From: Bacteroidales bacterium
GTDB lineage: Bacteria; Bacteroidota; Bacteroidia; Bacteroidales; Bacteroidaceae
Length of the DNA: 21,054 nucleotides
Assembly (NCBI GenBank): GCA_030531335.1
Contig: JAUNNV010000029.1
Location: forward strand, 1-21,054
Reading direction: 5' to 3'
The position numbers were made by a program, and so were the translations under genes. The notes below the pieces were generated by a model. The model saw nothing but the letters and a program-made list of their open reading frames with translations. It made no database searches and was not told where the DNA came from. Below, one piece after another: positions 2,383 through 18,469 of this stretch (position 1 is its first letter; each line of letters starts with the position of its first letter).

Positions 2383-2403
2383 ACAGTGTGTACTTTTGTC
2401 GTT

Positions 2404-2439
2404 GTCGTGGTTTGCCTGGTTTACGACATTATTTGTTTT
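2404..2439 (+). terminator. Weak candidate intrinsic terminator after the HhH gene
   Basis: gtcgt(2404-2408) ... acgac(2423-2427) is a 5-bp stem with a long loop, followed by tatttgtttt. The stem is short, so this is low confidence. Confidence 0.2.
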
Positions 2440-2481
2440 GTACGAGATGATAGGAATGTTATAATCTGCCGTAGTACATTT

Positions 2482-3849: not shown

Positions 3850-3856
3850 GACAAAT

Positions 3857-3904
3857 ATGATAATTTTGAATTATGAACTTATGATAATTAAGAATTATGA
3901 CTTG
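3857..3904. repeat. AT-rich imperfect 24-bp direct repeat x2 in the nfeD-flotillin spacer
   Basis: atgataattttgaattatgaactt (3857-3880) is followed by atgataattaagaattatgacttg (3881-3904). About 19 of 24 positions are identical, including the shared blocks atgataatt and aattatga. Confidence 0.6.
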
Positions 3905-3945
3905 CGAAGTTTGATGATCGAATCGAACAATCTTAACTCAAAATA

Positions 3946-4518: not shown

Positions 4519-4549
4519 GTTTTGATGTGTTTTCGTTGTTTTACGTTGG

Positions 4550-4557
4550 CAAATATA
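4550..4557 (-). promoter_or_regulatory. Candidate -7 promoter box (TATATTTG) for the nfeD-flotillin operon
   Basis: The minus-strand sequence ccc-TATATTTG-ccaacg lies about 32 nt upstream of the ATG at 4518. A TTTG lies about 20 nt further upstream at a -33-like position. Confidence 0.35.
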
Positions 4558-4591
4558 GGGACAAATAGATGAATTGCAAAACAAATCGGCA

Positions 4592-4669: not shown

Positions 4670-7108
4670 TCACATTTCGACCAAATGGAAGGAGGTCTGT
4701 CCTATCTGGAAGCTTTCGCCATGCCAGAGTTGATATTCCTTTCCAAGCGCGAGATATTTGCCCCCCTTCAAGGTGATGCCATCTACGGCACAGATACGCA
4801 CTACGCCATGCCTTTCATAAACCTTCACCTGCACGGGAGCCACGTCGCTTTGGAGATCCCAAGTGAGTTGCAAGGCGCAATCGACCGACTTGCCGATGGT
4901 GACAACTGTGTGAGGTGATGAGCGTAGCCATTTGTAGAGTGCGATGTCCATATCCTTGACAGATCCCGACACGTGCAGGAAAAAATGCTTGCCGACCGAC
5001 AAGGGTTGAGTCATGCACACCGCTATGGCCACACCATAGCCGATGAACACGAACAATGTCTTCATTAGTTCCGAAACCGTCTGTAGTTCCGCAACCATTT
5101 CCCAAAACAAAGTGCTCGCCACACCCACGACAGCCAGCATCAGCCACTGTCGCCTTTTGAGCCACAGGCGCGAATGATAGGTGGATACACAAGCGATGAC
5201 AAGTGTAGTCAGCACCCAAGGCAGCAGGTCGAACACAAACGAGCCCTCGTAAAGATTGAGCACGACAAGAGTGGCATTGTTGAAAACGAACACAAAAAAC
5301 ACGAGGACACACGCCACGGATGCCCGGACGAACTGCCCAAACAACCTTATGTGCCAACTATACTTGAACAACGTGAAGATTGACAGGGCAAAGGTAAGGA
5401 CGAAACCGATGATGCAACCAAATGTGGGAAGTGTATATAAACGTGAGGAGATGATGTCCAAATCCTGGGGGGAAAATGGGGATACACCTTGCTCGTGAAA
5501 GCCCAACAAGGAAATCGCGATACCATCGAAGAGGTCGAGAAAGAGTGAGCGAAAATGTGGATCCCACACAACCAACCAACCGATCGACGCCGCAGCGATG
5601 GCTACAAGGATCCAGCGTGTGAAGGGGGATGCGTTTTGAGGGTCGAGCAAGTTGGAACGGTTGTAATAATGCGAGCCATCGGGGCAATGCCTTCCATGTT
5701 CGGGGCAATGTTGTCCGTTTTCATTCCAACACTCCAAATGCATCACATGGCTGCATCTTGCCACGATACGGTCGCCCACGGCAAAGGGAGCCTTACAGTA
5801 ATAACATTCGTCGGGGATGGCGATGGCATTGATGCTCATGCGCCCCCCTGTATAGGTGAGGACATACTTGCGCTGAAAGATGACATAGCGTACAAATGGT
5901 TCCAACAGTTGCAAGGCCACGTAGGCGAGCAACAAGACCAGCAAGGCGATAATGATGCCGCGTGAAGCGATGTGGCCGGGCGATTTGTACCCACCGGTAA
6001 CGATTGGCACGTCAATGCTTCCGCACGCATATTCCTTGGAGCACCGGGCAATCAGGCTGTCGTTCCGGTCGTGGAAACTCAATTCCAGCCTGCGCGAACA
6101 GCCGTAGTAGATTTTCCCATCGGGATTCTCGAGCCGGATGGCGAAATCGGGATAGCCAATGCCGAAGGACGCGAAATTGTGTTTGCGCAACTCGACGGCA
6201 CTCAAACCATCGATGACACCCCCCCCCGATTGCTGGCAGAACACCTGCATCATATCCTTGTCGTCGGTGGAACTGTTTCCAGAGTCGGTCGAGGGAGTAC
6301 ACACGTAGCAAATGGCGGGTGCGGAAAACGAGGTGTCGGCGAGTTGTTGTAGGATTTGAGCCTGCACCCAGTAGTGGTCGGGGTCGAGAGGCGTATTGTC
6401 CGTCTCGTCATACACATGGCTGTCCGACAGTATCGCGATGGTGCGGTATGCAGCCGAGTCGAGAGGTGTTCCGGTGCCTTTGCGCAGTTTGCCGAGCATG
6501 AAGTACAAGGCACGATACACGTAAGGAGGAAGTTTGGTGTCGGACACACGATATTTGGAATTGCCGTTTACGTAATTGTCGATTACGTATGGCGAGACCT
6601 CCATGATAGGCGACAACTCGCCTTCGGAAAGGATGAACGAGATAAACACATTCCCATCGCCATACAGACGTATCAGCGAACGGATGTAGTCGCGTTCCTT
6701 TTCAAGCATGTCGGACGATTGGCACAAATCGACCATCAGCAGCAACTTGAGTCCCAACTTGGCATTTTCGGAAGCCACCACGTTGTTGAAGGAAACGACA
6801 TGTGGATGGGTCGATTCTGACCAAGGCACGAACTGGCGTTTCAGCTCCTTCACTGTCATGTGGATCAAGGAGCTGTCCTCAAGTAGGTATTTGTCCAAAT
6901 CATGGGTAATGTCCAACTCCAAGCTTATCTGTTTCACGTCGGTTGAAACGTTCATCGAGCGTATGGCCAAGGCATGGGTCTCGTGTTCGACCGAAGAAGG
7001 ATTCAACTCCGTGAACCGACTGCACGAGGCAAGTAGCAGAATGTATGGTAGCCAGACAGCAAACTGGCTGAAACGACGGAAACAACAAATTACAGACGGT
7101 TTCATCAT
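4670..7108 (-). CDS. Multi-domain membrane protein: lipoprotein signal + periplasmic (possibly vWA-like) domain + TM + cytoplasmic RING-H2 zinc finger + ~6-7 TM helices + C-terminal FHA domain; putative membrane E3-like ligase
   Basis: The N-terminus MMKPSVICCFRRFSQFAVWLPYILLLASCS has a lipobox. TM1 is IIIALLVLLLAYVALQLL. The RING-H2 pattern is C-x2-C-x13-C-x-H-x2-H-x2-C-W-x6-C-x2-H (ECYYCKAPFAVGDRIVARCSHVMHLECWNENGQHCPEH), with a Trp after ligand 6 as in E2-binding RINGs. Hydrophobic helices follow. The C-terminal GKSVDCALQLTWDLQSDVAPVQVKVYERHGVVRICAVDGITLKGGKYLALGKEYQLWHGESFQIGQTSF fits the FHA consensus (G..x..C.L....S..HA.I...........). Domain calls are motif-based only. Confidence 0.75.
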   Translation of the reverse strand: MMKPSVICCFRRFSQFAVWLPYILLLASCSRFTELNPSSVEHETHALAIRSMNVSTDVKQISLELDITHDLDKYLLEDSSLIHMTVKELKRQFVPWSESTHPHVVSFNNVVASENAKLGLKLLLMVDLCQSSDMLEKERDYIRSLIRLYGDGNVFISFILSEGELSPIMEVSPYVIDNYVNGNSKYRVSDTKLPPYVYRALYFMLGKLRKGTGTPLDSAAYRTIAILSDSHVYDETDNTPLDPDHYWVQAQILQQLADTSFSAPAICYVCTPSTDSGNSSTDDKDMMQVFCQQSGGGVIDGLSAVELRKHNFASFGIGYPDFAIRLENPDGKIYYGCSRRLELSFHDRNDSLIARCSKEYACGSIDVPIVTGGYKSPGHIASRGIIIALLVLLLAYVALQLLEPFVRYVIFQRKYVLTYTGGRMSINAIAIPDECYYCKAPFAVGDRIVARCSHVMHLECWNENGQHCPEHGRHCPDGSHYYNRSNLLDPQNASPFTRWILVAIAAASIGWLVVWDPHFRSLFLDLFDGIAISLLGFHEQGVSPFSPQDLDIISSRLYTLPTFGCIIGFVLTFALSIFTLFKYSWHIRLFGQFVRASVACVLVFFVFVFNNATLVVLNLYEGSFVFDLLPWVLTTLVIACVSTYHSRLWLKRRQWLMLAVVGVASTLFWEMVAELQTVSELMKTLFVFIGYGVAIAVCMTQPLSVGKHFFLHVSGSVKDMDIALYKWLRSSPHTVVTIGKSVDCALQLTWDLQSDVAPVQVKVYERHGVVRICAVDGITLKGGKYLALGKEYQLWHGESFQIGQTSFHLVEM
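6219..6227. repeat. 9-nt homopolymeric C run (G9 on the coding strand) inside the RING-FHA gene
   Basis: Plus gacaCCCCCCCCCgat, coding TCG GGG GGG GGT (SGGG) within QSGGGVIDGLS. Confidence 0.9.
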
Positions 7109-7110
7109 TG

Positions 7111-8076: not shown

Positions 8077-9277
8077 GTTTGAAGAAATATTTCGCTGCTG
8101 TGTCGAAAATGCCATACGCACGACGCTGTTCTTCGTTGTATATGCCTTTTTCCTCAACACCTTGCTTGGTGACGTTGATGATGTCGCGACCCATAAAGTA
8201 GATATCGCGTCGTTCCAACTCATTTTTCGCAACCAGATTTTGCGCCACCAGTTTGTCTAATTGACGTGCCGCTCGGACAAGTGCTTCGGGCGAAATACCT
8301 GTGCCGTAGAGCACGCTGCCCTCTTCCGTCAGCTCTACCGGGACGGCGCATTTCAGGGATTCAATCGAATCCACGTAGTTGTTGTAACTGTCGCGCACCA
8401 TATTCACATCGGCACATGACGATTTCGTCTCTATCGGTTGGAATTTCGACAACAGAAATTCTTGATGTTGCTTGAACACGCCGACCTCCTCGGCGGATTC
8501 CACCTTGCCTGAAGGACATATCTGATGGAGCTTCCGATACGCTTTCCGGATATCCATCAACTTGGCTTTCATGACAGCCAACGCCTCTTGTTGACCATGG
8601 CAAGGATTGCGGGCCAATGCCACCCGACAAGTAAGGTCAAGATCGTGATCGAATACTATCTCGTATTCCCGTCCTTTCTGAGTGTCTTTCAACACATCCA
8701 CCACCATGATGTTGCGAATGCGCAACGTCACATCGGATGCCTCCGGATTCACCTTGAACCGTTGTGTCAAAATTTTCTGACTTAACTTCGGCAATGTCTG
8801 AGGCGAGTCTGTCGCACTTGTCGGCAGATAGGTAGCAGGACAGGCAATGGTGAGCGAGGCGGAGTTCGGTTCCACCCAGGCATTGATAAGGTGATGGCGG
8901 CGTTTCTTCCGATACGACTTATACACCGATTCTCTTAGGTAATATTTCGAATTAGGCTCTACCAGCACCTTATATTGCAATTTCTCGGCATGAAGCCGAC
9001 GTTTGCCAAGAAACGGATGGGTAAACACATCGTTGTAGGATACGTCCTGACGGAAAGCCATGAAATCGCGATTGCCAGACAACGTGAGAACCAACTCGTC
9101 GGCAGCCTCTTCGAAAGCAAGCGTCAGGTCAAGCTCCAAGCCTTTGTCGTCGAAGGCAATCTGTATTTTCTCCTGATAAGGCGTGTCGGCATCCACACGC
9201 ACGTTTTTGGTCTCTTGAGCCTGTGCCAGGGCAGCACAGCAGGCCATGAAAAGGCAGAAGAATTTAGTCTTGGTCAT
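8057..9277 (-). CDS. Secreted hypothetical protein (406 aa) with N-terminal signal peptide
   Basis: ATG at 9277; MTKTKFFCLFMACCAALAQAQ-ETKN is a signal peptide. A long ORF with mixed composition and several Cys. It overlaps the E2 gene end by 14 nt. No recognisable catalytic motif. Confidence 0.65.
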   Translation of the reverse strand: MTKTKFFCLFMACCAALAQAQETKNVRVDADTPYQEKIQIAFDDKGLELDLTLAFEEAADELVLTLSGNRDFMAFRQDVSYNDVFTHPFLGKRRLHAEKLQYKVLVEPNSKYYLRESVYKSYRKKRRHHLINAWVEPNSASLTIACPATYLPTSATDSPQTLPKLSQKILTQRFKVNPEASDVTLRIRNIMVVDVLKDTQKGREYEIVFDHDLDLTCRVALARNPCHGQQEALAVMKAKLMDIRKAYRKLHQICPSGKVESAEEVGVFKQHQEFLLSKFQPIETKSSCADVNMVRDSYNNYVDSIESLKCAVPVELTEEGSVLYGTGISPEALVRAARQLDKLVAQNLVAKNELERRDIYFMGRDIINVTKQGVEEKGIYNEEQRRAYGIFDTAAKYFFKHVSEFE

Positions 9278-9860
9278 AATATATCCAATTGTTTGGTTCT
9301 CCTTGTGTCCGAACCCAATAGGCTACTTTCAAATCCTCTGGGTAAGGAGGTTCGGGCAGTGCATGGTAGATTTCGTAGCGCAGATACAGTGCGATGCGTT
9401 CCACAGCCCATGCCAAACTGCTGTGTGTGTTGGGCATGTTCACACACACACGTCCTGCCAGGCTACCATGATACCCTATGTTGGGATGCCAAGGCAACGT
9501 GTCGCCCACAAAACGGAAGCAAGGCATAGCATCTACCTGAGGATAACGTTCGGGAAGTTTTATCTCCATCCGAAACTCATGGGCGAAAATAGGACTGCCA
9601 TCCACATTCACCCCACAGATACATTTTATAAAATAGTCTATCGAGTAGGCCGTAGGGATTCCTTCAGGGGTGGCATCGACCACTTGCATGGCGATGTCGT
9701 TGCGTTGTTTCACAAAGGCGGCAAGCTGCTCCCACTCGTAAAACAGTCGGTGTGCGCGTCCTCGAAGAGGCTTGTTCTGAAACCAGCTTGTCCCGGGCGA
9801 AGTCAAGGAAAGGGGTTTACCCTGGGAATGGATCGGGGATGAGGAAAATTGTGTCGCCAT
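9264..9860 (-). CDS. Ubiquitin-conjugating enzyme (E2/UBC-fold) homologue
   Basis: The UBC core motif is ...FRMEIKLPERYPQVDAMPCFRFVGDTLPWHPNIGYHGSLAGRVCVNM... (YP.xP, HPNI, G...C). It can be laid alongside UbcH5 ...[34 protein letters not shown]. An N-terminal RLFYEWEQL helix is present and LPEPPYPEDL lies downstream. The ATG at 9860 overlaps the Ubl gene end by 44 nt; an alternative TTG start lies at 9806. Confidence 0.8.
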   Translation of the reverse strand: MATQFSSSPIHSQGKPLSLTSPGTSWFQNKPLRGRAHRLFYEWEQLAAFVKQRNDIAMQVVDATPEGIPTAYSIDYFIKCICGVNVDGSPIFAHEFRMEIKLPERYPQVDAMPCFRFVGDTLPWHPNIGYHGSLAGRVCVNMPNTHSSLAWAVERIALYLRYEIYHALPEPPYPEDLKVAYWVRTQGEPNNWIYYDQD

Positions 9861-10140
9861 TGTTCACATTATAGTCGGCAAGCGTCTGTTCGGTTTTCCC
9901 AATGCGCGGCCGCATCACGCGAATCTCGTGCACGACCTCGTCTTCTTTCCCAAAGAAATAATCGAGGGGTGCTCCTGTGCTGTCGATGGAGGGAAAGTCG
10001 AATATCAGTCGGCCATCTTGTCCGGTTGAATGTTTCAGGTTGTTCATCAATGCGCCCAATGGGAGTTGCGGATTGATGACGCGGAACTTCACCTTTTTGT
10101 CCTTATAGACAATGTTAATGAAAAAATCGTCTTGGTGCAT
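9817..10140 (-). CDS. Ubiquitin-like (beta-grasp) protein ending in a C-terminal Gly
   Basis: The C-terminal 22 residues TLADYNVNNGDTIFLIPDPFPG match ubiquitin 55-76 [22 protein letters not shown] position by position (T,L,D,Y,N,I/V,T,I/L,L,I/V, terminal G). The stop codon follows the Gly directly. RLIF and a KVKFRVI beta-hairpin lie upstream. The ATG at 10140 is 23 nt after the tssF stop. Confidence 0.75.
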   Translation of the reverse strand: MHQDDFFINIVYKDKKVKFRVINPQLPLGALMNNLKHSTGQDGRLIFDFPSIDSTGAPLDYFFGKEDEVVHEIRVMRPRIGKTEQTLADYNVNNGDTIFLIPDPFPG

Positions 10141-10163: not shown

Positions 10164-11927
10164 TTATTTGCTACGCGAATCTAAGTCAATCTTCACTTGG
10201 ATGGGGCAGATGCCCGTAGTACGCACCTCCATGAGCCTTTGTAGGTGATTTTCGATACTGGCAAAATGTTTTCCCAACGCACGTTTCACATACATGTTGT
10301 CGTGGAGCACGATACCTACCACGATGCAATAAGCATGATAGCTACCTCGTGTAAGCACCTGCTTGTGCGTACGTATGGAGGCTATCATTTCCTGCTCTAC
10401 ATTGAACCGTGTGGCCAATTCCTGATAACAAAACAACTTTAGATCTGTTTCGGTGACAAGCCGGTCGTCGGTGGCTATGAAGTAGCGTGTAGCCGTCCTC
10501 ATGGCTTCCTCGGACAACAATTCGTCGTATCCTGGTTGAGGAATCGTCACTTGATGGGATTTGGACTGGTCGAAACCTGGGGGTACCACAAACACGGCAT
10601 CGGAGGTGAGCACACTGTTCACTACAGCTCCGTTAGTGGTCAGATAGCCGACATTGAGTGAAGTGTTTTCTGGGCTTTGTCGAAGGGTGTCGCCCCAACT
10701 ATCCTTCGAGCGTTCGTGAGGAATGCCGGCAAACATCAGATAGACACCCTCGTGCGAGGTTCGCAAATGTGGATGCGTGTGTTGCGACAACTCCTTCAGG
10801 TTGTTGCGCAGGTTGTGCATCACCATGTCGGTATATTCGTTGCCCATGGCCTGAAACGCATAATAGTCGGATGTGTATTTGTCGATGAGGCCCGACAACA
10901 ACCTGTGCAGCCTCCCCTCGTTGAACCTGTCGGCACCTATGCGCCGCACCTGTAGCCGGACATTGCCTAATAGTTGGTCCTCGTCGGGACGTAGCAGATG
11001 AAGAAACTGCCCATTGTTCTTGTCATCGATACGCTGTATAGGCGCATCGGCCGAGAGGGTGGCTGTTTTCACTTCGGCGTTCACTATCAAGGCGATGTTG
11101 ACAAGCAAATCGCTCTCTTTGAAAGAAAAGTTGTCGTCGATGCCGTCGAACTCGAAGGTGAGTTCCATGCGATCAATGGCATCGATATCGTCCATTTCAT
11201 CTACGACATACAGCAATAGGTTTTGTCGGGCATACAAATCCAGGGCGCAGAAGTTGCGATAGGCAGCCATGCCTTGGAACACGTTGCCCGAACGTACGGC
11301 TTGCGACTGATTGTAGAGCAACGTATCAAGCGAGAAACAGTCGGCACACGGCAGATTCGCAAAGTCCCACGGTGCGATGAGGGGTATTTCCCTATCGCTC
11401 ATGCTTACACGCAGGCCATGGAAATCCTGGTTCTTCAAGGCAAACGCAAGGCCTTTTAGGCTTTTCACCTTGTGTGGAAAGAACATATTGACTTGCCATC
11501 TCCTTCCATCCACGCGCCTCAGCCCATCCATCTCCACCTGTATGGCTTTGGTCTTGAGCAAGGGGATGAAGTTGAAGTTGTTGTTGTCGGTTCCTTTTAA
11601 GATGAATCTCATGGACGAATCGACATCCATTTCCGTCACATTGGGCATCAGAGCCAATTGCACGACGGCTGTGGCTGGAATGGCCTTGACTGGTTCGTTC
11701 ACGCAAAGCATGTTCTGGAACTCGTCGAGCAGCTCCGTCCGCAATGCCTCCAACTCGTTGTCCGACTCGTTGAATTGATAGGCCAGTGCCGTAATCAGGA
11801 ACTTGAACAGCGGATCCGAATCCAGTCCCTCAAGACTGTCGCTTCTGTTGTTGCGGTGCCAAATATCCACACATTGGGCCATCAGCTCCTTGGCGCGTTG
11901 TCTTATTTCAAATATGTTCTGTCTCAT
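10164..11927 (-). CDS. tssF: TssF-like baseplate protein (phage gp6 / baseplate-J family)
   Basis: 587 aa, directly after the gp25-like gene. The N-terminal block DPLFKFLITALAYQFNESDNELEALRTELLDEFQNMLCVNEPVKAIPATAVVQL resembles the TssF signature DP.VERLLEGFAFL...L.DEFPE...LL..L.P...P.PS..IVQF. The size and gene order (tssE-tssF) fit. Confidence 0.75.
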   Translation of the reverse strand: MRQNIFEIRQRAKELMAQCVDIWHRNNRSDSLEGLDSDPLFKFLITALAYQFNESDNELEALRTELLDEFQNMLCVNEPVKAIPATAVVQLALMPNVTEMDVDSSMRFILKGTDNNNFNFIPLLKTKAIQVEMDGLRRVDGRRWQVNMFFPHKVKSLKGLAFALKNQDFHGLRVSMSDREIPLIAPWDFANLPCADCFSLDTLLYNQSQAVRSGNVFQGMAAYRNFCALDLYARQNLLLYVVDEMDDIDAIDRMELTFEFDGIDDNFSFKESDLLVNIALIVNAEVKTATLSADAPIQRIDDKNNGQFLHLLRPDEDQLLGNVRLQVRRIGADRFNEGRLHRLLSGLIDKYTSDYYAFQAMGNEYTDMVMHNLRNNLKELSQHTHPHLRTSHEGVYLMFAGIPHERSKDSWGDTLRQSPENTSLNVGYLTTNGAVVNSVLTSDAVFVVPPGFDQSKSHQVTIPQPGYDELLSEEAMRTATRYFIATDDRLVTETDLKLFCYQELATRFNVEQEMIASIRTHKQVLTRGSYHAYCIVVGIVLHDNMYVKRALGKHFASIENHLQRLMEVRTTGICPIQVKIDLDSRSK

Positions 11928-11943
11928 CGTTATGCACCCTTCA

Positions 11944-12387
11944 TTAGTTCCATACGTTTATGATGTTGCTGTACTGAAAAGGCTCGTTTGTATCGCCCAA
12001 CAGGCCGGTTATTTCCACCAATACTTGCCGTTGGTCGCGGCGGTAGTTCATTACTACCTTTGGTGAGAGCAACCGAGGCTCATACACCTCGATGCTATGC
12101 TTCAGGTCGGAGGCGAATGTCTGTAGGTTCTTCGAGGAGCCGGAAACTTTCTTCTTGTATATTGGATTCCGGCTGTCACGAGAATCGAACACCGTCCCCT
12201 CGTTCTCGTCGAAAATCTCAAATCTCAACGTGGAGAACACAAAGCCATAATCCGGATCGATGGGCAAAGAGCCCAACGGTGTGTCCATCAGGAGCTGTAG
12301 CGAATCCCTGACCGATTGCTCCAACCCGTTCGACTGATGGAGGAACCTGCCCGACACTACCTGTAAAGGACTTTGCAAGTATTTCAT
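11944..12387 (-). CDS. tssE: TssE / gp25-like baseplate wedge protein (GPW_gp25 family)
   Basis: 147 aa. SVRDSLQLLMDTPLGSLPIDPDYGF and IEVYEPRLLSPKV match the gp25/TssE motifs (..NL..LL.T..G.....P.fG / I..fEPRL). The ATG at 12387 overlaps the upstream stop in an ATGA. Confidence 0.85.
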   Translation of the reverse strand: MKYLQSPLQVVSGRFLHQSNGLEQSVRDSLQLLMDTPLGSLPIDPDYGFVFSTLRFEIFDENEGTVFDSRDSRNPIYKKKVSGSSKNLQTFASDLKHSIEVYEPRLLSPKVVMNYRRDQRQVLVEITGLLGDTNEPFQYSNIINVWN

Positions 12388-13589
12388 ATCAATGGTGTGA
12401 AAACATCTTCCGGCTGATGTTCCTCCTTGGCCACGAGACCAGACAGCGCATTGAACAATGCAGGGTAAAGTTCCTGATATAGCCTATCGTGCAATGCTTC
12501 GTACAGCACTTCTTTCAGCTTCGGACGAAGTCGATCGTCCACGTATGCCTGCAGTTTTTCCGTGATTGTCGCGGTCAGTTCAGGCATCACCACGTCGCGA
12601 AGTTCCATGCGGATTTTTTCGTCTATTTGCTGCTTCAATTGTTCAAGAAGTTGTGTGTACAACTCTCTCTTCAGCGCCTCCACATCGATGTGGCGACTTT
12701 CCGTCACCACATCGTCCATGGACAGTAGCAAGGCGTTCATGAATTCTTTGAGCCACGACAGGTAGGCTCGGATATGGTTTGTGTGAGGCACGCGGCGAGG
12801 GTCGGCGGCCAGCTCGCGCGTGGGTTCTTGTCCTGAGCCCTGCCGAAGGACTTGTTGGCCTCCCAATCCCAATCGGATGTGGTAATCCAAGGCTTGATCC
12901 GTTTCGCGCAACAGTCGCACAAGCTCCACTACCGACTCCTTGCCGGTGAGGCTCTGTAGCCGGAAACACAGATGTAACAAGGTGCGTTTGCCGTCACCAT
13001 CCTCCATGTTGCGGTGGGTAGCCAGCTTCGTGAGTAGTTCCACATACATGCTTACGAACTCTCCGAAAGCCTTGTGCGAGGCTGTCGAGATCATGGGAGG
13101 CACATACGAGGCATCCACATTGAGCAGGTCGCCCTCTACGTAAAGCCTCTTCAGCGGCAGTACGTCCAAACTTTCGTCGGCACGTTCCAACTCGTCCAGC
13201 GAATGCAGCGAGAGCTCGTAAACGGGAGCCTTGTAGGGTATGCCATCGCGTTCGAAACAATGTGTTTTCCCATTGGCAGGGCCGACGCACACAAAACATT
13301 CCGGCAACGGTTGCGACACGATGGTCAGCGTGAGGTCGTCATCTACGCTGAGCACGGCCCCCGATGGCAACAATGCCGTAAGCCTCAGATTGTTCATCTC
13401 GAAGGTGTTGCCCACAAAAGCGCCCTCAACGTGTAGTGGGTACATGGGGAGAATGCCCATGCCGACACTCCCTATGGCGGCGCGGAGCAACAGTTGCTGA
13501 CGGTTGTCGAAGTCGTGTTGCTGATGGACGAAGACCCCAGAGGTGAGCTCCATCCCTGGTTGCCAATGTATATTTGCGTTGTAATACAT
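12384..13589 (-). CDS. tssK: TssK-like baseplate protein (N-terminal shoulder domain) with C-terminal coiled-coil region
   Basis: The N-terminus NIHWQPGMELTSGVFVHQQHDF...LLRAAIGSVGMGIL resembles the TssK start (W.EGM.L.PQHFQQ.D...LAR.G...WG). 401 aa, 4-nt ATGA overlap with tssE. The C-terminal half is helical/coiled-coil, so this is an atypical TssK and only moderately confident. Confidence 0.55.
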   Translation of the reverse strand: MYYNANIHWQPGMELTSGVFVHQQHDFDNRQQLLLRAAIGSVGMGILPMYPLHVEGAFVGNTFEMNNLRLTALLPSGAVLSVDDDLTLTIVSQPLPECFVCVGPANGKTHCFERDGIPYKAPVYELSLHSLDELERADESLDVLPLKRLYVEGDLLNVDASYVPPMISTASHKAFGEFVSMYVELLTKLATHRNMEDGDGKRTLLHLCFRLQSLTGKESVVELVRLLRETDQALDYHIRLGLGGQQVLRQGSGQEPTRELAADPRRVPHTNHIRAYLSWLKEFMNALLLSMDDVVTESRHIDVEALKRELYTQLLEQLKQQIDEKIRMELRDVVMPELTATITEKLQAYVDDRLRPKLKEVLYEALHDRLYQELYPALFNALSGLVAKEEHQPEDVFTPLI

Positions 13590-13631: not shown

Positions 13632-14432
13632 TCATTCATAGTCCTTAATTACGATATTGTAGTTCATGATTTTCCCTTCCTCCGACTTGCCCTTGGCTCC
13701 TGCCTCAAACAGGCAGTCGAAAGGAATGAACCGGCTGTGCACAAATGCAAGCATACGTTCCCATCGTTTGGTAAGGTCGGCGTATGCGGTGGCTGTCAGA
13801 CCATCCACACAAATGTCGTAATGCACTTTTTGCATCCAAAAGCGTGTGTTGTCGCATTCGTTGTACGCCGACAAACGCATCCGCACCGGATAACCCGTGA
13901 CAACGCTCAGCAATGATTTTACAAACGACAAGTTGCCACGGAGTTTGGCCACGTATGGCAGCAACACCGCCACCTTGCGCACATACTCGTCCGTTTCCGC
14001 CTCCAAGTCGAACTTGTAGGATGTTTTTAACACGAATTCGAGCTTGCGGGCCAGCAAGTCGGCCACGATGTGTTCCCGCTTCAGCTTCTGCCTGAACATG
14101 AACGAGTCGATGGGTAGGAAAGTTTCTGACAGTGTCCTTATCCGCTCATGCAACTGTTGGGCAAGCTGTTTGAAATCGCCTTTTCGTTTCCTTCCGAAAC
14201 GGTCGGATGCCTTCAGCTCATCCTCCGATCCTAAAAACAAGGGAGGCAGATAGTGTAGGAAGCCGTTGCGCGAAAGCGATACGATTGCTTCCTTCGGATT
14301 GATGGACAACACATCCGGCGCATAGTTCCTGCTGAAGGAACCTTTCTGATAGGCCAGCCACTTGTCTTCCAGCTCTGGATACAAATAGTTGAGCAACAGT
14401 TCCGCACTTATCTCGTGCCTGTCGGTTGTCAT
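13632..14432 (-). CDS. Hypothetical cytoplasmic protein (266 aa), translationally coupled downstream of E1
   Basis: The ATG at 14432 overlaps the E1 stop (ctATGAcaa). There is no signal peptide or TM segment and no motif I can name. It lies 42 nt upstream of the tssK-like gene. Confidence 0.6.
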   Translation of the reverse strand: MTTDRHEISAELLLNYLYPELEDKWLAYQKGSFSRNYAPDVLSINPKEAIVSLSRNGFLHYLPPLFLGSEDELKASDRFGRKRKGDFKQLAQQLHERIRTLSETFLPIDSFMFRQKLKREHIVADLLARKLEFVLKTSYKFDLEAETDEYVRKVAVLLPYVAKLRGNLSFVKSLLSVVTGYPVRMRLSAYNECDNTRFWMQKVHYDICVDGLTATAYADLTKRWERMLAFVHSRFIPFDCLFEAGAKGKSEEGKIMNYNIVIKDYE

Positions 14433-15478
14433 AGTTCCACGTACCTATATCCTGTTGGGGTCTTTATTCTCACAATGTCGTGTGCTGGAATGCCCAACGC
14501 AGCCAATGGCAGCGTGGGGTAGGGGAACGAGGTGTCTATCTCCGCATATTCGTGTTGGCATAGTTTCGCCATCGGTATGGTCGAAAGTCGTGGATGTTGC
14601 TTCACGAAGCCAGCCATTCGGCGTGCCGGCAGCATTGCTTCCGTCTGTTCGCCCGTCTCTCGATTCTCTACATAATCCACAAAGGCATCGTTGAGCACCA
14701 CAGTGCCAATCCGCAGGAGTGATTTCAGCGAGTGTTCCCTGACTACTTCAATAGGCTCCCATTGCTCGTGCAGCACGCAATCGTCATCCCACGCCTCGAA
14801 CACGGCTTTCCGCACACTCAGGTTTTCGCCATCGTAGTAGCACATGTTTCGTTCCACTGGCACGCCTGCAATCACTTTCAATGCTTCGGCTGCTTGCCAG
14901 GCTCCTATCACGCTGGCCGCCACTGATGTGGTAGGGGCATGGCCAGCCGCTTCCATTTGCCGTATCACGCCCGAACAAGGCATCCGTCGGCGCAACTCGT
15001 CCAGTCCTTCCGTCCCGAGGCCACAAGCGTAGCAGTTCACGCCGGGCACAAACACCCGCATCGTCCCCTCCATGCCGATGATGCCACCGTCAATCCATGT
15101 CTTTCCTGCCCTCGTACAGAGGCGCTGGATGCAATAGCGGGTCCACCGGCTATCGACGCATCCCATCACCACGTTCATCTGCCGTATCAATGCCAATCCC
15201 ACATCGTATGCCACATCGCCATGGATGGCCTGCACATCGACGGTGGCGTTGATGCCTCTCAGCGCGTCCTTCACCACATCCACTTTGCGCCGACCCACAT
15301 CGACTGGCCTGAACAGGATGCTTCGTGTGAGGTTGCCCTGTTCCACCACATCGAAATCGACCACCACCAGATGCCCCACTCCAAGCAGTACGAGGTTTTT
15401 GAGCACCTCGTTGCCCAGGGCCCCACATCCCACCACCATGATGCGGGCATCGCGCAGCTTGTCTTCTTCGATGTTCAT
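14429..15478 (-). CDS. E1-like ThiF/MoeB-family adenylyltransferase (ubiquitin-activating-enzyme-like)
   Basis: The ORF 14429..15778 is trimmed to MNIEEDKLRDARIMVVGCGALGNEVLKNLVLLGVGHLVVVDFDVVEQGNLTR (Rossmann GxGxxG plus an acidic D..D motif typical of E1/ThiF). Downstream are CYAC (CxxC) and MPCSGV (candidate catalytic Cys in a PxCT-like context). The 100 codons upstream of this Met are Gly/Arg/His/Cys-rich junk. The ATG at 15478 overlaps the upstream stop (ggATGAac). Confidence 0.8.
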   Translation of the reverse strand: MNIEEDKLRDARIMVVGCGALGNEVLKNLVLLGVGHLVVVDFDVVEQGNLTRSILFRPVDVGRRKVDVVKDALRGINATVDVQAIHGDVAYDVGLALIRQMNVVMGCVDSRWTRYCIQRLCTRAGKTWIDGGIIGMEGTMRVFVPGVNCYACGLGTEGLDELRRRMPCSGVIRQMEAAGHAPTTSVAASVIGAWQAAEALKVIAGVPVERNMCYYDGENLSVRKAVFEAWDDDCVLHEQWEPIEVVREHSLKSLLRIGTVVLNDAFVDYVENRETGEQTEAMLPARRMAGFVKQHPRLSTIPMAKLCQHEYAEIDTSFPYPTLPLAALGIPAHDIVRIKTPTGYRYVEL

Positions 15479-16200
15479 CCGATTGGTAGTTTGTCCTGAA
15501 TGCTGTTGAAGACCTTGTCGAGCTTCATGCTCTGTCCGCCTTTTGTGATGTCCGTTGTGGATGTATCCTTCGCATTGCCGGCCACATGGCGGTTGTAGGC
15601 TTCCTCGATTTCCTTTTTCTTGTCGTTGTAGAGTCGTTCCATCATTTCGGAATACGTGTCGAAAATTTCCTGCAACTTGTCCTTGGCCTCTTTTACCGCC
15701 TCTTCCGAGCTTCCTACAGTGCGACTGGCTACCGCAGACGCAGCCCTCGTCTTTTCTGCCTCGATTTTCGTCTTGCATTCCGAGTAGAGTGCATCGGTGG
15801 CCGTGTCGAGTAAATCCTTGCGTTCCTTATTTACATCGGGCATCGTGAGCAGTAGGTATTTGGCATCGATGCCATTCTCATCGTCTGCCCCAGGAGCAGT
15901 TTCGAGCGTCACCTTGAATTCCGGATGCACTTCCGTGATGCCTTTGTAAATGCAGGAGAAGTACGCCGAATCCTTTGGATATACATTCATCATGTGTTTT
16001 TCGTTCTCATCCTCGTGCACTAAAATGTCGGCCACGTCCTCAATGCGTTTGTCCATGCCACCATACACCATCTCCACTCCCAGCAACGAAGAGGGATCGG
16101 CCTTGACACACACGTTGCAGAACAGGTACGACATGCTTGCCACATGTCCCAGCATCCTGTTCTGTGTTTCTATCAATGCGACTTCTACCGATCGTTTCAT
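15475..16200 (-). CDS. Hypothetical protein (241 aa; N-terminal globular part + acidic coiled-coil C-terminus), translationally coupled upstream of E1
   Basis: ATG at 16200; the stop overlaps the E1 ATG. No JAB/MPN HxH motif was found. The C-terminal region is Lys/Glu-rich (EAEKTRAASAV...EAVKEAKDKLQEIFDTYSEMMERLYNDKKKEIEEAY). Confidence 0.6.
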   Translation of the reverse strand: MKRSVEVALIETQNRMLGHVASMSYLFCNVCVKADPSSLLGVEMVYGGMDKRIEDVADILVHEDENEKHMMNVYPKDSAYFSCIYKGITEVHPEFKVTLETAPGADDENGIDAKYLLLTMPDVNKERKDLLDTATDALYSECKTKIEAEKTRAASAVASRTVGSSEEAVKEAKDKLQEIFDTYSEMMERLYNDKKKEIEEAYNRHVAGNAKDTSTTDITKGGQSMKLDKVFNSIQDKLPIG

Positions 16201-16239: not shown

Positions 16240-16629
16240 CTATTTGCCCTCTGCAAGGCACGCATTGCCGGGGAAGTTCACGGAGATGTTTCCACCCCAG
16301 TTGCACATACATTTGCAGTTGTCGAGCAGTGCAGGCATTTGTTTTACCATTTCTTTTCCTCCAGGCATCCATGGAGCGGCTATCACTGGCATGCAGGGCA
16401 TGGGCGTAAGTGCTCCGAATGCTGCAGCCGTGGCCGCAGCCACCTGAGGATTCGACAAGCTTTGGCACATGCCGAAAGGCATGATGTTCATCATCGGCTT
16501 GTTGTCGCCGATGTTTCCTATGGGTTTCCCCTGTACCTTTGGTCGGGTGGGATCCACCACCATGAAGTTGGAAGGAGCCATCCCGAACGAGCACTGCAGG
16601 ATTGCTCCGGCCGTTACGAATTTTCCCAT
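16240..16629 (-). CDS. DUF4280 PAAR-like spike-tip protein
   Basis: 129 aa. VTAGAILQCSFGMAPSNFMVVDPTRPKVQGKPIGNIGDNKPMMNIMPFGMCQSLSNP matches the DUF4280 pattern as I recall it (GA.L.CSFG..PS.L.V...V.G.P.A...D..P..NI.PFG.C). It lies 8 nt after the preceding gene. Confidence 0.75.
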   Translation of the reverse strand: MGKFVTAGAILQCSFGMAPSNFMVVDPTRPKVQGKPIGNIGDNKPMMNIMPFGMCQSLSNPQVAAATAAAFGALTPMPCMPVIAAPWMPGGKEMVKQMPALLDNCKCMCNWGGNISVNFPGNACLAEGK

Positions 16630-16638
16630 TGTATTTTT

Positions 16639-18423
16639 TTATTTTCCTACTTCCTCTTCCTTCATCTTTGCCGACGCTTTTCCTGGTGTCGAGGCTGCCG
16701 GCACGGCCACACCGTCTGTGATGTTCTGCGACTTGAACGACGAAGAGGCCTCCAAATTCTTGAACACGCCCTTGGGAGCCGTGGTGTCGCCCTTGATGTC
16801 GGTCTTGCCTTCTATGGTGGTGTCGCCCTTCAGCGCATTCTTGCCTCCACCTGCCGTAAGGTTTCCGCCTTCGAGCGTAATCACTGCCTTTCCTTCTCCC
16901 TGCTGCAGTTCGGTGGTGGTGTTGCCCATGATGCCCACTTGCTCGGCAGCTATCTGCACCAGTTTGCCCTTGGTTTTCTTGTCCTTGCTGCCAGCAAGCA
17001 GCTTTTCCGCCACAAGTACCATCTGCGAACTGGCGGCCAGTGCCTTGTCCGTGCGTTTCTCCTTATCCACATCCATGGCTGCCACCTGAATGTTCTTGGC
17101 GTTGAGTGTCAGTTCGCCTGTAGCCATTCCTTCGGTGTCGGTAGCTTCTATCTTCATTTTCTCTGCCCTGACAAGCAGGGTGCCATCCTTGGTCAGTGCC
17201 TTCTCCTGCCGTTTTTTGTCCTTCAGTTCCTCGTCGATGGCCTGTATGGTGACATTCTTCGAGGTAATCACCACGTTGCCCAAAGCGGGTATGTCGCCTT
17301 TTTCGCCCTTCTCGTCGAGTTGGGCGGAGGCTGTGGAGAGGTTCACCTCCTGTAGGTTGACGTTCAGTGTGCTGTCGGCCATCAGTGCGCCCTTCGTGTC
17401 GTGTGCCACCACGTCGATGTGAGGCATTTGTACATACAATCCGGCTTCGGCGTTCTGGCGCAGGTTGCCGTCGCCGTCGGTCGAGACCATGCTTACGAAT
17501 TCGGAACGCAGGGCGATGTGCGACGAGGTGGTGTTCTTGTCGAAATCGGCACTGGCTTTGCCGAGCTCCTCTTTGGTGTCCTTCAGGGCCTGTGCCTTCC
17601 GATTGAGTTCGGCTTCGGACGAAAGCAACCTGATGTAGTCGGTCAGTGAGGAGTAAAGCATCCGTTCCAGGTCCTGGAACTTGTCGGCCAGATCCGACAA
17701 CTCGGGTTGGTTCGCCCGCAGGTGTTCCTCCGTGTCGTTCAGTGTGTCCTGGCTTTTTATGAGCTTTTCTATGTCGTCCAGGTTTTTCAGCACCGTCTTC
17801 TTGGCATTGGCAGCCAACTTCGCAATGTCGCCACTGTATTTTTCCAAATCTTTCACACGCTCGTCGATGGCGGCGGTCTGTAGTTTGTTCGACGGTGTGG
17901 CGCTTATCGCCACATAAGAGTCCGCATGTATGTCGATGCCGGTGCTACAGCTGCCTGCTTCGGCCACGAACGCGCCGGTGGTGTCGTTGCTCTGCAGGGT
18001 GATGGCGCGAGCTTGGTTCACGATTTCGGAGTTCATGCACACCACGTTCTCCATGCCGTCGGTACCGGGATCCACGGCGATGTGGCGAATGCTGGCTGCT
18101 CTCGACACGATGCTTCCCCCTATGTCGGGAGATCCTGTACCCTCCAGGCTTACGCGGTTTCCGCGTATCACCACCGTGCCGCCTCCGCCATGCTCTCCCA
18201 TCAGCTCGCCGCTGCGGTTCACGTTGCCGATGATGACCGTCGGAGCCGAAAGAATGAGGCATTGGTCGTCGCGCACGTATTTCACGCCGCTCACCGTGTG
18301 ATGGATTTCCTCCCTCAGCCGTCGCACCTCGCTTTTTTGCTTGCGGATTTCCGCAACGTCCTTTCTCACGCTGCTTTCGAAAGCCTCCAGTGCCTGCTTC
18401 AGGTCGTCAAGAATATATGCCAT
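16639..18423 (-). CDS. Coiled-coil + Gly-rich beta-helix-like repeat protein; candidate spike/needle or effector carrier (not a canonical VgrG)
   Basis: The ORF track starts at a TTG at 18432; the ATG at 18423 (MAYILDDLKQ...) is the likelier start. An N-terminal coiled coil is followed by SAPTVIIGNVNRSGELMGEHGGGGTVVIRGNRVSLEGTGSPDIGGSIV... repeats. Internal coiled coils and a C-terminal Gly/Lys/Thr-rich repeat follow (GGNLTAGGGKNALKGDTTIEGKTDIKGDTTAPKG). The antisense ORFs 16339..17355 and 17926..18648 are rejected. Confidence 0.65.
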   Translation of the reverse strand: MAYILDDLKQALEAFESSVRKDVAEIRKQKSEVRRLREEIHHTVSGVKYVRDDQCLILSAPTVIIGNVNRSGELMGEHGGGGTVVIRGNRVSLEGTGSPDIGGSIVSRAASIRHIAVDPGTDGMENVVCMNSEIVNQARAITLQSNDTTGAFVAEAGSCSTGIDIHADSYVAISATPSNKLQTAAIDERVKDLEKYSGDIAKLAANAKKTVLKNLDDIEKLIKSQDTLNDTEEHLRANQPELSDLADKFQDLERMLYSSLTDYIRLLSSEAELNRKAQALKDTKEELGKASADFDKNTTSSHIALRSEFVSMVSTDGDGNLRQNAEAGLYVQMPHIDVVAHDTKGALMADSTLNVNLQEVNLSTASAQLDEKGEKGDIPALGNVVITSKNVTIQAIDEELKDKKRQEKALTKDGTLLVRAEKMKIEATDTEGMATGELTLNAKNIQVAAMDVDKEKRTDKALAASSQMVLVAEKLLAGSKDKKTKGKLVQIAAEQVGIMGNTTTELQQGEGKAVITLEGGNLTAGGGKNALKGDTTIEGKTDIKGDTTAPKGVFKNLEASSSFKSQNITDGVAVPAASTPGKASAKMKEEEVGK

Positions 18424-18469
18424 CTTTTTCAATTTAGGGTTGTCCTATCAATAGGCTTTGTCGAGGTTG

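What the first reader, a model, noticed from the sequence alone, without database searches (positions are those of the whole stretch)
14429..16200. E1 flanked on both sides by ATGA-coupled unknown genes; ORF-track start of E1 is a 100-codon artefact
The ThiF/MoeB core starts at MNIEEDKLRDARIMVVGCGALG (ATG 15478). The 100 codons upstream in the ORF track are Gly/Arg/His/Cys-rich junk. The true ATG overlaps the stop of a 241-aa gene (ggATGAac). The E1 stop overlaps the ATG of a 266-aa gene (ctATGAcaa). This translational coupling implies stoichiometric co-production, so the two unknown proteins are prime candidates for new pathway components, such as an E1 cofactor, an adaptor or a non-JAB deconjugase. 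Neither has HxH/JAMM or papain-like Cys-His signatures that I can see.
Basis: seen in the sequence. Interest (0 to 1): 0.65.

Follow-up and report, generated by a model that had tools for sequence, protein, structure and literature searches.

The report
E1 gene inside T6SS baseplate operon
The two unknown genes overlapping the ubiquitin-activating-like E1 gene are probably not new ubiquitin-pathway enzymes: one looks like the missing TssG wedge subunit of a type VI secretion baseplate, and the other is a diverged, acidic copy of the ribosome recycling factor fold that travels with the secretion spike genes.

Summary
E1 starts at ATG 15478, and the 100 upstream codons are an out-of-frame read through the 241-aa gene. 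Both junctions are ATGA overlaps.

All genes lie on the minus strand of a Bacteroidales type VI secretion (T6SS) operon: spike-associated 597-aa protein, DUF4280 (PAAR-like), 241-aa, E1, 266-aa, TssK-like, gp25/TssE, TssF-like, Ubl, E2, two unknowns, RING.

- **266-aa protein.** It follows E1 and precedes the TssK-like gene in every related locus covering that position, about 60 in all. One locus keeps it with no E1 found. Its model best matches baseplate triplex/wedge-1 proteins, and it is the only window family that matches a TssG profile. It is most likely the TssG equivalent.
- **241-aa protein.** It has a full-length RRF fold (TM 0.89) but fails the frr equivalog model, is strongly acidic, and moves about. 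It sits next to E1, or 2–3 kb upstream, or on the opposite strand, or is absent within 6–10 kb. It tracks the VgrG/597-aa/DUF4280 spike genes. I infer a spike accessory role; this is unproven.

A third junction in the operon (TssK-like/gp25) is also ATGA.

The parts
14429..15478 (-). E1-like ThiF/MoeB-family adenylyltransferase, true CDS of 349 aa
   Evidence: Pfam ThiF E 8e-52 over residues 6-234. Orthologue alignment A4 fixes the start. It lies directly upstream of the 266-aa gene in every locus where both positions are covered.
15479..15778 (-). Spurious 100-codon N-terminal extension of the mechanical E1 ORF
   Evidence: It lies inside the 241-aa gene in another frame, has low-complexity G/R/H/C composition, and is absent from orthologues.
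15475..16200 (-). 241-aa RRF-fold paralogue (called RRFL here): an acidic, T6SS-associated protein that is not the housekeeping frr
   Evidence: Pfam RRF 46.5 bits against a cutoff of 29.7. TIGR00496 frr 14.7 bits against a cutoff of 149.1. AF2 pLDDT 86.7. Foldseek places E. coli RRF 1ise first (E 2e-10, TMt 0.89), with 26 RRF structures ahead of anything else. The family profile matches Thermus RRF at E 7e-9 over full length. Family median pI is 4.8. Its position in the operon varies.
13632..14432 (-). 266-aa protein, probable TssG-equivalent baseplate wedge subunit
12384..13589 (-). TssK-like baseplate protein (401 aa)
   Evidence: NCBIfam TssK E 9e-4. hhalign against E. coli TssK gives E 6.7e-4 over 171 colinear columns.
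11944..12387 (-). gp25/TssE baseplate wedge protein (147 aa), ATGA-overlapped with the TssK-like gene
   Evidence: Pfam GPW_gp25 E 3.8e-10. NCBIfam TssE E 2.6e-7. Junction sequence read.
10164..11927 (-). TssF-like baseplate protein (587 aa); assignment tentative
   Evidence: The assignment rests on position, size and conservation. Similarity is only weak: E. coli TssF N-terminus E 0.089 and PHROG baseplate wedge subunit E 0.067.
16240..16629 (-). DUF4280 PAAR-like spike-tip protein (129 aa)
   Evidence: Pfam DUF4280 E 1e-30. NCBIfam IglG E 8e-10.
16639..18432 (-). 597-aa conserved protein (p597) that follows VgrG in related loci; it co-occurs with the 241-aa gene
   Evidence: No family match.
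9817..10140 (-). Ubiquitin-like protein (107 aa) ending in ...PDPFPG
   Evidence: The C-terminus is PDP[FI]PG in 47 of 51 family members (49 end in PG) and the protein is 66-83% identical across genome loci. Weak Rad60-SLD hit.
9264..9860 (-). E2-like protein (198 aa) with a conserved WHPNI...GRVC motif
   Evidence: Pfam UQ_con E 4.8e-6, 26.7 bits against a cutoff of 27. The motif is conserved in every variant printed.
4670..7108 (-). 812-aa protein with a RING-finger match; last conserved gene of the cluster
   Evidence: zf-RING_2 and Prok-RING_1 hits below cutoff. Conserved at the same position in related loci.

Best explanation
The E1 gene sits inside the spike and baseplate operon of a Bacteroidales type VI secretion system. 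That system also encodes a Ubl, an E2 and a RING protein.

The downstream 266-aa gene most likely encodes the TssG equivalent. This is the gp7/TRI-1-like 'wedge 1' subunit which, in characterised systems, joins two TssF copies and docks TssK. Here it would act with the adjacent TssK-like, gp25/TssE and TssF-like proteins. Its overlap with E1 reflects tight operon packing, and perhaps co-assembly of E1 with the wedge.

The upstream 241-aa gene encodes a diverged, acidic paralogue of ribosome recycling factor. It keeps the L-shaped two-domain fold but has probably lost ribosome binding. It belongs to the movable spike module (VgrG, 597-aa protein, DUF4280, PEGA protein). It probably acts as a structural accessory or chaperone of the PAAR-like spike tip.

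Shown: the gene identities at fold and profile level, the synteny and the junctions. Inferred: the TssG role. Weakly inferred: the spike-chaperone role.
For: Context.
- Related loci carry TssC, three TssD/Hcp genes, VgrG, the 597-aa protein (p597), DUF4280, a PEGA protein, the 241-aa protein (RRFL), ThiF, the 266-aa protein (p266), a TssK-like gene, gp25, a TssF-like gene, Ubl, E2 and RING.
- A TssF-anchored scan of one genome per species gave 50 loci in Prevotella, Xylanibacter, Bacteroidaceae, Muribaculaceae and Paludibacteraceae. All share an invariant core order from E1 to RING.

The 266-aa protein.
- It is found by HMM in all 47 of those loci that cover the position. It is also present in the divergent loci L057 and L058 at 25-26% identity, still as ThiF-p266-TssK-gp25-TssF, and in all 11 E1-anchored metagenome loci that cover it.
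- L055 keeps p266-TssK-gp25-TssF behind a RING protein, with no E1 in the 11.8 kb held.
- hhalign of the family against ten proteobacterial TssG sequences gives E 8.6e-5, Prob 60%, colinear to the C-terminal L.LDYNT / LGW.S motif.
- Controls: the other 17 window families score E >= 0.12, and a reversed TssG profile scores 0.3.
- The signal is about as strong as those linking the neighbours to E. coli TssK (6.7e-4) and TssE (1.2e-4).
- No other gene in the cluster matches TssG.
- The N-terminal half is highly conserved but poorly predicted in isolation. This would fit a segment that folds only within a complex, as I recall for the TssG N-terminus.

The 241-aa protein.
- RRF fold and profile homology.
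- It fails the frr equivalog model. A glutamate aligns with the canonical R129, and the family has a median net charge of -15.
- Where enough upstream sequence is held, it is present with p597 in about 33 loci, both are absent in 7, and p597 never occurs without it.
- L001/L002 show VgrG-p597-RRFL with no E1 within 10 kb.
- L042 has a two-gene DUF4280-RRFL operon divergent from E1. L071 has PEGA-RRFL on the opposite strand.
- Precedent: PAAR-like DUF4150 tips need a dedicated DUF2169 chaperone (PMC11883445).
Against: The 266-aa protein.
- No Pfam, NCBIfam or PHROG model hits it. Only one distant homologue gives a sub-threshold Pfam TssG match, E 0.014.
- The model is of medium quality (pLDDT 67), and its N-terminal 110 residues are unreliable.
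- hhalign probability is only 60%.
- In canonical T6SS operons tssG follows tssF. Here the gene precedes the TssK-like gene, and tssF is followed by the Ubl gene.
- The near-perfect E1/p266 adjacency would also fit a dedicated E1 partner.

The 241-aa protein.
- The spike-chaperone role rests on synteny and analogy only.
- No interaction was predicted or measured.
- Loss of ribosome binding is inferred from charge and a few aligned residues.
Confidence: 0.62

Rival explanations
1. One reading: both flanking proteins are new components of the Ubl conjugation pathway (E1 cofactor, adaptor or non-JAB deconjugase), made in fixed ratio with E1 through translational coupling.
For: Both ATGA overlaps are real. 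The E1/266-aa adjacency is kept in all covering loci, even at 25% identity, and the 4-nt overlap recurs in 27 of 49. No deconjugating peptidase was recognised anywhere in the cluster.
Against: The 241-aa gene is often not adjacent to E1, is sometimes on the other strand, and is sometimes absent locally. The 266-aa family has no invariant Cys or His and resembles baseplate wedge proteins and TssG. L055 keeps it with no E1 found in the locus. ATGA overlap also joins TssK-like and gp25.
Confidence: 0.15
2. Hybrid reading: the 266-aa protein is a TssG-like wedge subunit that also serves as the docking site tethering E1 to the baseplate. Ubl conjugation would then take place on, or be controlled by, the assembling baseplate.
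For: E1 is hard-wired immediately upstream of the wedge genes in 45 of the 46 TssF-anchored loci that cover the position, and in the deeply divergent L057 and L058. The overlap is frequent. The Ubl and E2 genes follow tssF directly.
Against: Gene order alone cannot separate co-assembly from co-regulation.
Confidence: 0.25
3. The 241-aa protein is a genuine ribosome recycling factor, as NCBI annotates it, that happens to lie in this operon.
For: The Pfam RRF match is above the gathering score. The fold is full-length RRF. NCBI names it 'ribosome recycling factor'.
Against: TIGR00496 scores 14.7 bits against a cutoff of 149.1. Identity to solved RRFs is only 12-20%. A glutamate aligns with the conserved R129, and the family is strongly acidic. 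Every context examined is a T6SS locus. The family is small, with 60 clusters at 90% identity in 5.8 billion proteins.
Confidence: 0.04
4. The 241-aa protein is a secreted T6SS effector that mimics RRF to jam ribosomes or EF-G in the target cell.
For: It is linked to VgrG and PAAR-like spike genes, where cargo effectors are usually encoded. It retains the RRF shape.
Against: It is single-copy and conserved at about the same level as the structural genes (29-39% identity across genome loci). It is not polymorphic and has no consistently adjacent candidate immunity gene; in the window it runs straight into E1. Its acidic surface argues against rRNA binding.
Confidence: 0.08

Closest known systems
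TssG (ImpH) of proteobacterial T6SS-i; equivalents are T4 gp7, R-pyocin/diffocin TRI-1 and phage 'wedge 1' proteins
   Different: No curated TssG model recognises it. Gene order is E1-p266-tssK-tssE-tssF instead of tssE-tssF-tssG. It has a distinctive conserved N-terminal motif (AE..LN.LYPE..W...G.F.RNY..D...LSRDGF..LLP). It is always preceded by an E1 gene except in L055.
Ribosome recycling factor (frr; PF01765, TIGR00496)
   Same: Full-length L-shaped fold: a three-helix bundle with an inserted alpha/beta domain (TMt up to 0.89). Shared hinge motif P.[LV]..[ED]R and C-terminal K.KEIE.
   Different: It fails the equivalog cutoff. It is 12-20% identical to solved RRFs. It has longer helices 2 and 3 and a disordered, variable tail (PKMP repeats in some loci). 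It has a family-specific HPEF motif in domain II. Its net charge is about -15. A glutamate aligns with the canonical R129. It sits in T6SS loci rather than a housekeeping context.
DUF2169 chaperones of PAAR-like DUF4150 (PIPY) spike tips (PMC11883445)
   Same: A conserved accessory gene genetically linked to VgrG and a non-canonical PAAR-like tip. Here RRFL is linked to DUF4280, including the two-gene DUF4280-RRFL operon in L042.
   Different: The fold is unrelated. The tip family differs (DUF4280, not DUF4150). No interaction has been shown. This is an analogy of role, not membership.
Bacteroidota T6SS-iii (genetic architectures GA1-3) and bacterial Ubl conjugation operons (Bil/Bub, 6E-type E1-E2-Ubl clusters)
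   Same: TssC and TssD match the Bacteroidota-type Pfam families. The E1, the E2 (HPN...C motif) and the Gly-terminated Ubl resemble known bacterial conjugation cascades.
   Different: The reviews and papers I could search describe T6SS classes i-iv and their accessory genes with no ubiquitin-like or RRF-like component. Known Bil/Bub operons, as far as I recall, are stand-alone defence cassettes that include a deconjugating peptidase. Here the cascade is interleaved with baseplate genes, includes a RING protein, and has no recognisable peptidase.

Membership tests
TssG (T6SS baseplate wedge subunit) | Recognised by the curated family model (Pfam PF06996; NCBIfam) | tested here: not met
   No hit for the window protein in Pfam or NCBIfam. 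One of 32 family members gives PF06996 at E 0.014, below cutoff but colinear.
TssG (T6SS baseplate wedge subunit) | Detectable homology to bona fide TssG by profile-profile comparison | tested here: inconclusive
   hhalign of A5 against a 10-sequence TssG alignment gives E 8.6e-5, Prob 60%, 141 columns, colinear. The match is specific: 17 other window families score >= 0.12 and the reversed control 0.3. The probability is below the usual 90-95% acceptance level.
TssG (T6SS baseplate wedge subunit) | Fold of the gp7/TRI-1/TssG wedge protein | tested here: inconclusive
TssG (T6SS baseplate wedge subunit) | Encoded with TssE, TssF and TssK, one copy per locus, with no other candidate for the role | tested here: met
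   It is adjacent to TssK-like, gp25 and TssF-like in all covering loci. No other cluster protein matches TssG.
TssG (T6SS baseplate wedge subunit) | Forms a TssF2-TssG complex that binds TssK trimers | not testable with these tools
This needs a multimer prediction or biochemistry.
Ribosome recycling factor (frr) | Two-domain L-shaped RRF fold and a Pfam RRF domain | tested here: met
   PF01765 scores 46.5 bits against a cutoff of 29.7. Foldseek top 26 hits are all RRF, best E 2e-10, TMt 0.89.
Ribosome recycling factor (frr) | Passes the equivalog model for functional frr (TIGR00496) | tested here: not met
   14.7 bits against a cutoff of 149.1.
Ribosome recycling factor (frr) | Conserved basic residues of the helical bundle that contact the 50S subunit (E. 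coli R129, R132; residue numbers from my own knowledge) | tested here: not met
   In the profile alignment to Thermus RRF, the canonical R.AIRNIRR stretch aligns with k.kleaaka. Family median pI is 4.8 and net charge -15.
Ribosome recycling factor (frr) | Splits post-termination ribosomes together with EF-G | not testable with these tools
   Needs frr(ts) complementation or an in-vitro recycling assay.
Ubl-pathway accessory (E1 cofactor, adaptor or deconjugase) | Catalytic signature of a deconjugating peptidase (JAMM HxH...D, or a Cys-His dyad) or a protease fold | tested here: not met
   The 266-aa family has no invariant Cys or His. The 241-aa family has only H92 and a near-invariant C31 within an RRF fold. 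No protease appears among the fold hits.
Ubl-pathway accessory (E1 cofactor, adaptor or deconjugase) | Strict co-occurrence and adjacency with E1 across homologous clusters | tested here: inconclusive
   266-aa gene: adjacent to E1 in all covering loci except L055, where it stays with the baseplate genes. 241-aa gene: not met, since its position and strand vary or it is absent locally.

The most novel reading that the evidence does not exclude
The E1 is physically built into the T6SS baseplate through the TssG-like 266-aa subunit. The Ubl/E2/RING cascade then modifies a baseplate, spike or cargo protein as part of assembly or firing. The RRF-fold protein is a translation factor recruited as the dedicated chaperone of the DUF4280 spike tip, or as a substrate of the cascade. 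This would be a previously undescribed T6SS class whose operation depends on ubiquitin-like conjugation.
Probability: 0.2. Interest if true: 0.85.

Novelty: new variant of a known kind. Interest (0 to 1): 0.55.

Why it matters
It removes two false leads. The 266-aa protein is best read as the missing TssG of this baseplate. The 241-aa protein is mis-annotated in public records as a ribosome recycling factor.

It also sharpens a more interesting picture. A whole lineage of gut and rumen Bacteroidales T6SS loci has an E1 gene fixed immediately upstream of its wedge genes, and a Ubl, an E2 and a RING protein immediately downstream. An RRF-fold protein has been recruited to the spike module. I found none of this in the T6SS or bacterial-ubiquitin literature I could search.

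Two cultured strains carry the locus: Xylanibacter ruminicola D31d and Prevotella sp. ne3005. Whether ubiquitin-like conjugation is needed for a secretion machine is therefore directly testable.

Tried and rejected
- Direct sequence searches of the 266-aa protein and its family profile against PDB sequences gave only chance hits: Bcl-2 at E 0.5 and O-GlcNAcase at E 0.36.
- Pfam, NCBIfam, PHROGs and PADLOC gave nothing for the 266-aa protein.
- Foldseek of its model against the PDB gave nothing significant. The AFDB50 library was not available.
- The third word-indexed homologue search, using an alignment extended with distant members, did not reach any protein with a precomputed TssG domain.
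- hhalign against single E. coli TssG was too weak: E 0.042 with A5 and 0.031 with the 49-sequence family. Only a 10-sequence TssG profile gave a usable signal.
- I considered a conserved Lys-containing motif in the RRFL C-terminal tail as a possible Ubl acceptor. I dropped it because the tail is variable across loci.
- I considered RRFL as a toxin and rated it low, because it has no consistent immunity-like neighbour and is conserved like a structural gene.
- The 597-aa protein gave only a non-significant resemblance to the RNA polymerase beta' SI3 region, E 0.02.
- PADLOC E1-E2 hits to E1 cover only the generic Rossmann part and do not place the system in a known defence family.
- Six literature searches found no description of a T6SS with ThiF/Ubl genes or of RRF paralogues in secretion systems.
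Full report
**1. Observation**

All long ORFs in the region lie on the minus strand.

- The minus-strand sequence reads ggATGAac at 15478-15475. This is the stop of the 241-aa ORF (15475-16200) overlapping the ATG of E1.
- It reads ctATGAcaa at 14432-14429. This is the stop of E1 overlapping the ATG of the 266-aa ORF (13632-14432).
- The mechanical E1 ORF (14429-15778, 449 aa) begins with 100 residues rich in G, R, H, C and Q. These lie entirely within the 241-aa gene in another frame.
- The Pfam ThiF match begins at residue 6 of the short form. Orthologues at 47% and 55% identity begin within a few residues of the same Met.

The coupling is not special to E1, however. The TssK-like/gp25 junction at 12384-12387 is also ATGA.

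**2. What the region is**

Pfam and NCBIfam scans of the window proteins give the following order, in the direction of transcription:

- a fragment related to VgrG C-termini (19784-20899);
- a BNR sialidase-like protein;
- a 597-aa protein with no family match (p597);
- DUF4280, a PAAR-like protein related to IglG;
- the 241-aa protein, which matches Pfam RRF at 46.5 bits, above the gathering score of 29.7;
- the ThiF-type E1;
- the 266-aa protein, with no match;
- a 401-aa protein with a weak TssK match;
- gp25/TssE;
- a 587-aa protein;
- a 107-aa Ubl;
- a 198-aa UQ_con-like E2;
- two unknowns;
- an 812-aa protein with a RING match;
- NfeD, SPFH and a 596-aa protein.

The window is a complete 21,054-bp contig of a Bacteroidales MAG. 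NCBI names the 241-aa protein 'ribosome recycling factor' and the 266-aa protein 'hypothetical'.

Contigs carrying distant homologues show the same block downstream of TssC, three TssD/Hcp genes and a 1285-aa VgrG. This is a type VI secretion locus with a Ubl/E1/E2/RING cascade interleaved with its baseplate genes.

**3. Census of related loci**

I anchored on the TssF-like protein, which is independent of E1 and of both flanking genes. A scan of one genome per species returned 50 loci. They come from Prevotella, Xylanibacter ruminicola D31d, Prevotella sp. ne3005, Prevotellaceae, Bacteroidaceae, Muribaculaceae and Paludibacteraceae. A few bins carry implausible labels.

tblastn and family HMMs show an invariant core: E1, 266-aa, TssK-like, gp25, TssF-like, Ubl, E2, p406, p373, RING.

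The 266-aa gene:
- It is found in all 47 loci that cover its position.
- It is found in two far more divergent loci (25-26% identity), which still read ThiF, p266-like, TssK-like, gp25, TssF-like.
- An E1-anchored metagenome scan gave 14 loci, all in the same context. The 266-aa gene lies directly downstream of E1 in all 11 that cover it.
- The 4-nt E1/266-aa overlap recurs in 27 of 49 loci. The rest have short gaps.
- In the most divergent locus, L055, a 1020-aa RING protein precedes p266-like, TssK-like, gp25 and TssF-like. No E1 is found in the 11.8 kb held.

The 241-aa gene behaves differently:
- It is immediately upstream of E1 in about 28 loci, with gaps from -17 to +171 nt.
- It lies 1.9-3 kb upstream, between the 597-aa gene and DUF4280, in six loci.
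- It is on the opposite strand in a two-gene DUF4280-RRFL operon in L042.
- It is on the opposite strand behind a PEGA gene in ten human-gut metagenome loci.
- It is undetectable within 6-10 kb upstream of E1 in seven loci. In at least one of these (L019), Hcp genes run straight into DUF4280-PEGA-E1.
- L001/L002 carry Hcp-VgrG-p597-RRFL with no E1 within 10 kb.
- Where enough upstream sequence is held, the 241-aa and 597-aa genes are present together in about 33 loci and absent together in 7. The 597-aa gene never occurs without the 241-aa gene.

**4. The 266-aa protein**

The family is conserved, with 56% mean column identity. It has a striking N-terminal motif and no invariant Cys or His.

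The AlphaFold model is of medium quality, with pLDDT 67. Residues 120-250 are good and the N-terminal 110 are poor.

- gp6, Pvc11, Algo12 and Mu gp47 baseplate proteins;

Generic alpha/beta folds such as OsmC score nearly as high. Foldseek finds nothing significant.

An exhaustive HMM search found 445 relatives. One 305-aa member has a sub-threshold but colinear Pfam TssG match.

I then assembled ten annotated TssG sequences, from E. coli Sakai ImpH and nine plasmid-borne genes. Profile-profile comparison with the extended 266-aa family gives E 8.6e-5 and probability 60%, over 141 colinear columns running to both C-termini. A greedier alignment extends colinearly over the full length and places the invariant G..LP of both families together.

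Controls:
- Of 18 window protein families, only this one matches the TssG profile (E 7.9e-4). All others score >= 0.12.
- A reversed TssG profile gives 0.3.
- The signal is of the same order as those tying the neighbours to E. coli TssK (6.7e-4) and TssE (1.2e-4).

No other gene of the cluster can fill the TssG role. I conclude, with about 70% confidence, that the 266-aa protein is the TssG equivalent. The evidence does not exclude that it also docks E1.

**5. The 241-aa protein**

The model is confident, with pLDDT 86.7. It shows a long N-terminal helix, an inserted alpha/beta domain, two long helices and a disordered tail.

The top 26 Foldseek hits in the PDB are all ribosome recycling factors. 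The best is E. coli 1ise (E 2e-10, TM 0.89 on the target). After these, nothing is significant. The family profile matches Thermus RRF at E 7e-9 over its full length. It is therefore a true RRF homologue.

It is very unlikely to be the working frr:
- It scores 14.7 bits against the frr equivalog cutoff of 149.1.
- It is 12-20% identical to solved RRFs.
- The canonical basic stretch R.AIRNIRR aligns with k.kleaaka.
- The family has a median pI of 4.8 and a net charge of -15.
- Every context examined is a T6SS locus.

Its linkage is to the spike genes, not to E1. PAAR-like DUF4150 tips need a dedicated DUF2169 chaperone (PMC11883445). By analogy, I propose that this protein is an accessory or chaperone of the DUF4280 spike tip or the 597-aa protein. 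This step is inference only.

An effector role seems unlikely. The gene is conserved like a structural gene and has no consistent immunity-like neighbour.

**6. Comparison with what is known**

Literature searches found no T6SS with ThiF, Ubl or RRF-like components. The same holds for a paper on the T6SS-iii membrane complex, a Bacteroidales culture-collection study and a 2026 review of T6SS accessory factors.

The cascade itself looks functional. The Ubl C-terminus is PDP[FI]PG in 47 of 51 family members, and the E2 WHPNI...GRVC motif is conserved in every variant printed.

No deconjugating peptidase was recognised in the cluster.

**7. Verdict**

The 266-aa gene is a constant partner of E1, but most likely because E1 is embedded in the baseplate operon next to a TssG-like gene. 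The 241-aa gene is a mobile, RRF-fold member of the spike module.

Taken alone, the finding is moderately interesting. The surrounding system, a T6SS lineage with a built-in Ubl conjugation cascade and a recruited translation-factor fold, deserves follow-up.

Noticed in passing
window 4670-10140 and 14429-15478 (minus strand); loci L003-L058, L071-L084: A complete Ubl / E1 / E2 / RING set is interleaved with T6SS baseplate genes across about 60 loci of rumen and gut Bacteroidales. The Ubl is the best-conserved protein of the cluster (66-83% identity across genome loci). Its C-terminus is PDP[FI]PG in 47 of 51 family members, and the E2 keeps WHPNI...GRVC. No JAB or other deconjugating peptidase was recognised. 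I found no description of such a T6SS in the searchable literature.
   Followed up: partly
window 15475-16200: NCBI annotates this protein as 'ribosome recycling factor'. That is probably an over-annotation from a domain-level match, since it fails the frr equivalog model by a wide margin.
   Followed up: yes
window 18470-19768 and 19784-20899: A signal-peptide BNR/sialidase-like gene sits between a VgrG C-terminus-like ORF and the 597-aa gene. It has no counterpart at this position in any related locus, so it may be inserted cargo or an effector. The 371-aa ORF aligns only to the C-terminal part of the 1285-aa VgrG genes and has an in-frame stop just upstream, close to the contig end. VgrG may therefore be truncated or disrupted here.
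   Followed up: no
window 499-4584: The NfeD-like, SPFH/Band-7 and 596-aa genes downstream of the RING gene have no counterparts in any related locus. The conserved cluster appears to end at the RING gene.
   Followed up: partly
window 16639-18432: The conserved 597-aa protein that follows VgrG has no family match. It shows only a non-significant resemblance (E 0.02) to the sandwich-barrel SI3 region of RNA polymerase beta'. It co-occurs with the RRF-fold gene.
   Followed up: partly
L026, L030, L035, L036, L052, L054 (RRF-like gene, about 5400-6380): In these loci the RRF-fold protein carries a C-terminal extension of 40-80 residues made of PKMP / PEMPK-type proline-lysine repeats. The window copy lacks this extension.
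   Followed up: no
L055 4737-7799: In the most divergent locus a 1020-aa protein with a Prok-RING_1 match occupies the position directly upstream of the 266-aa homologue, and the Ubl gene lies upstream of it. No E1 is visible in the 11.8 kb held; the locus is cut just past the TssF-like gene.
   Followed up: partly
L026, L033, L036, L043-L045, L052, L054 (record titles): Several contigs carrying this Bacteroidales-type locus are filed under bins named Oscillospiraceae, Akkermansia muciniphila, Lachnospiraceae, Flexilinea, Subdoligranulum and Sphaerochaetaceae. These are probably mis-binned contigs rather than cross-phylum transfer.
   Followed up: no
window 14429-15478 (E1 residues about 235-349): The E1 has a conserved C-terminal extension of about 115 residues beyond the ThiF domain. 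It also has conserved Cys residues at CYAC, PCSG and DDxC..H, a MoeB-like pattern with a possible crossover-loop catalytic Cys. Whether the extension is a ubiquitin-fold, E2-binding domain was not examined.
   Followed up: no
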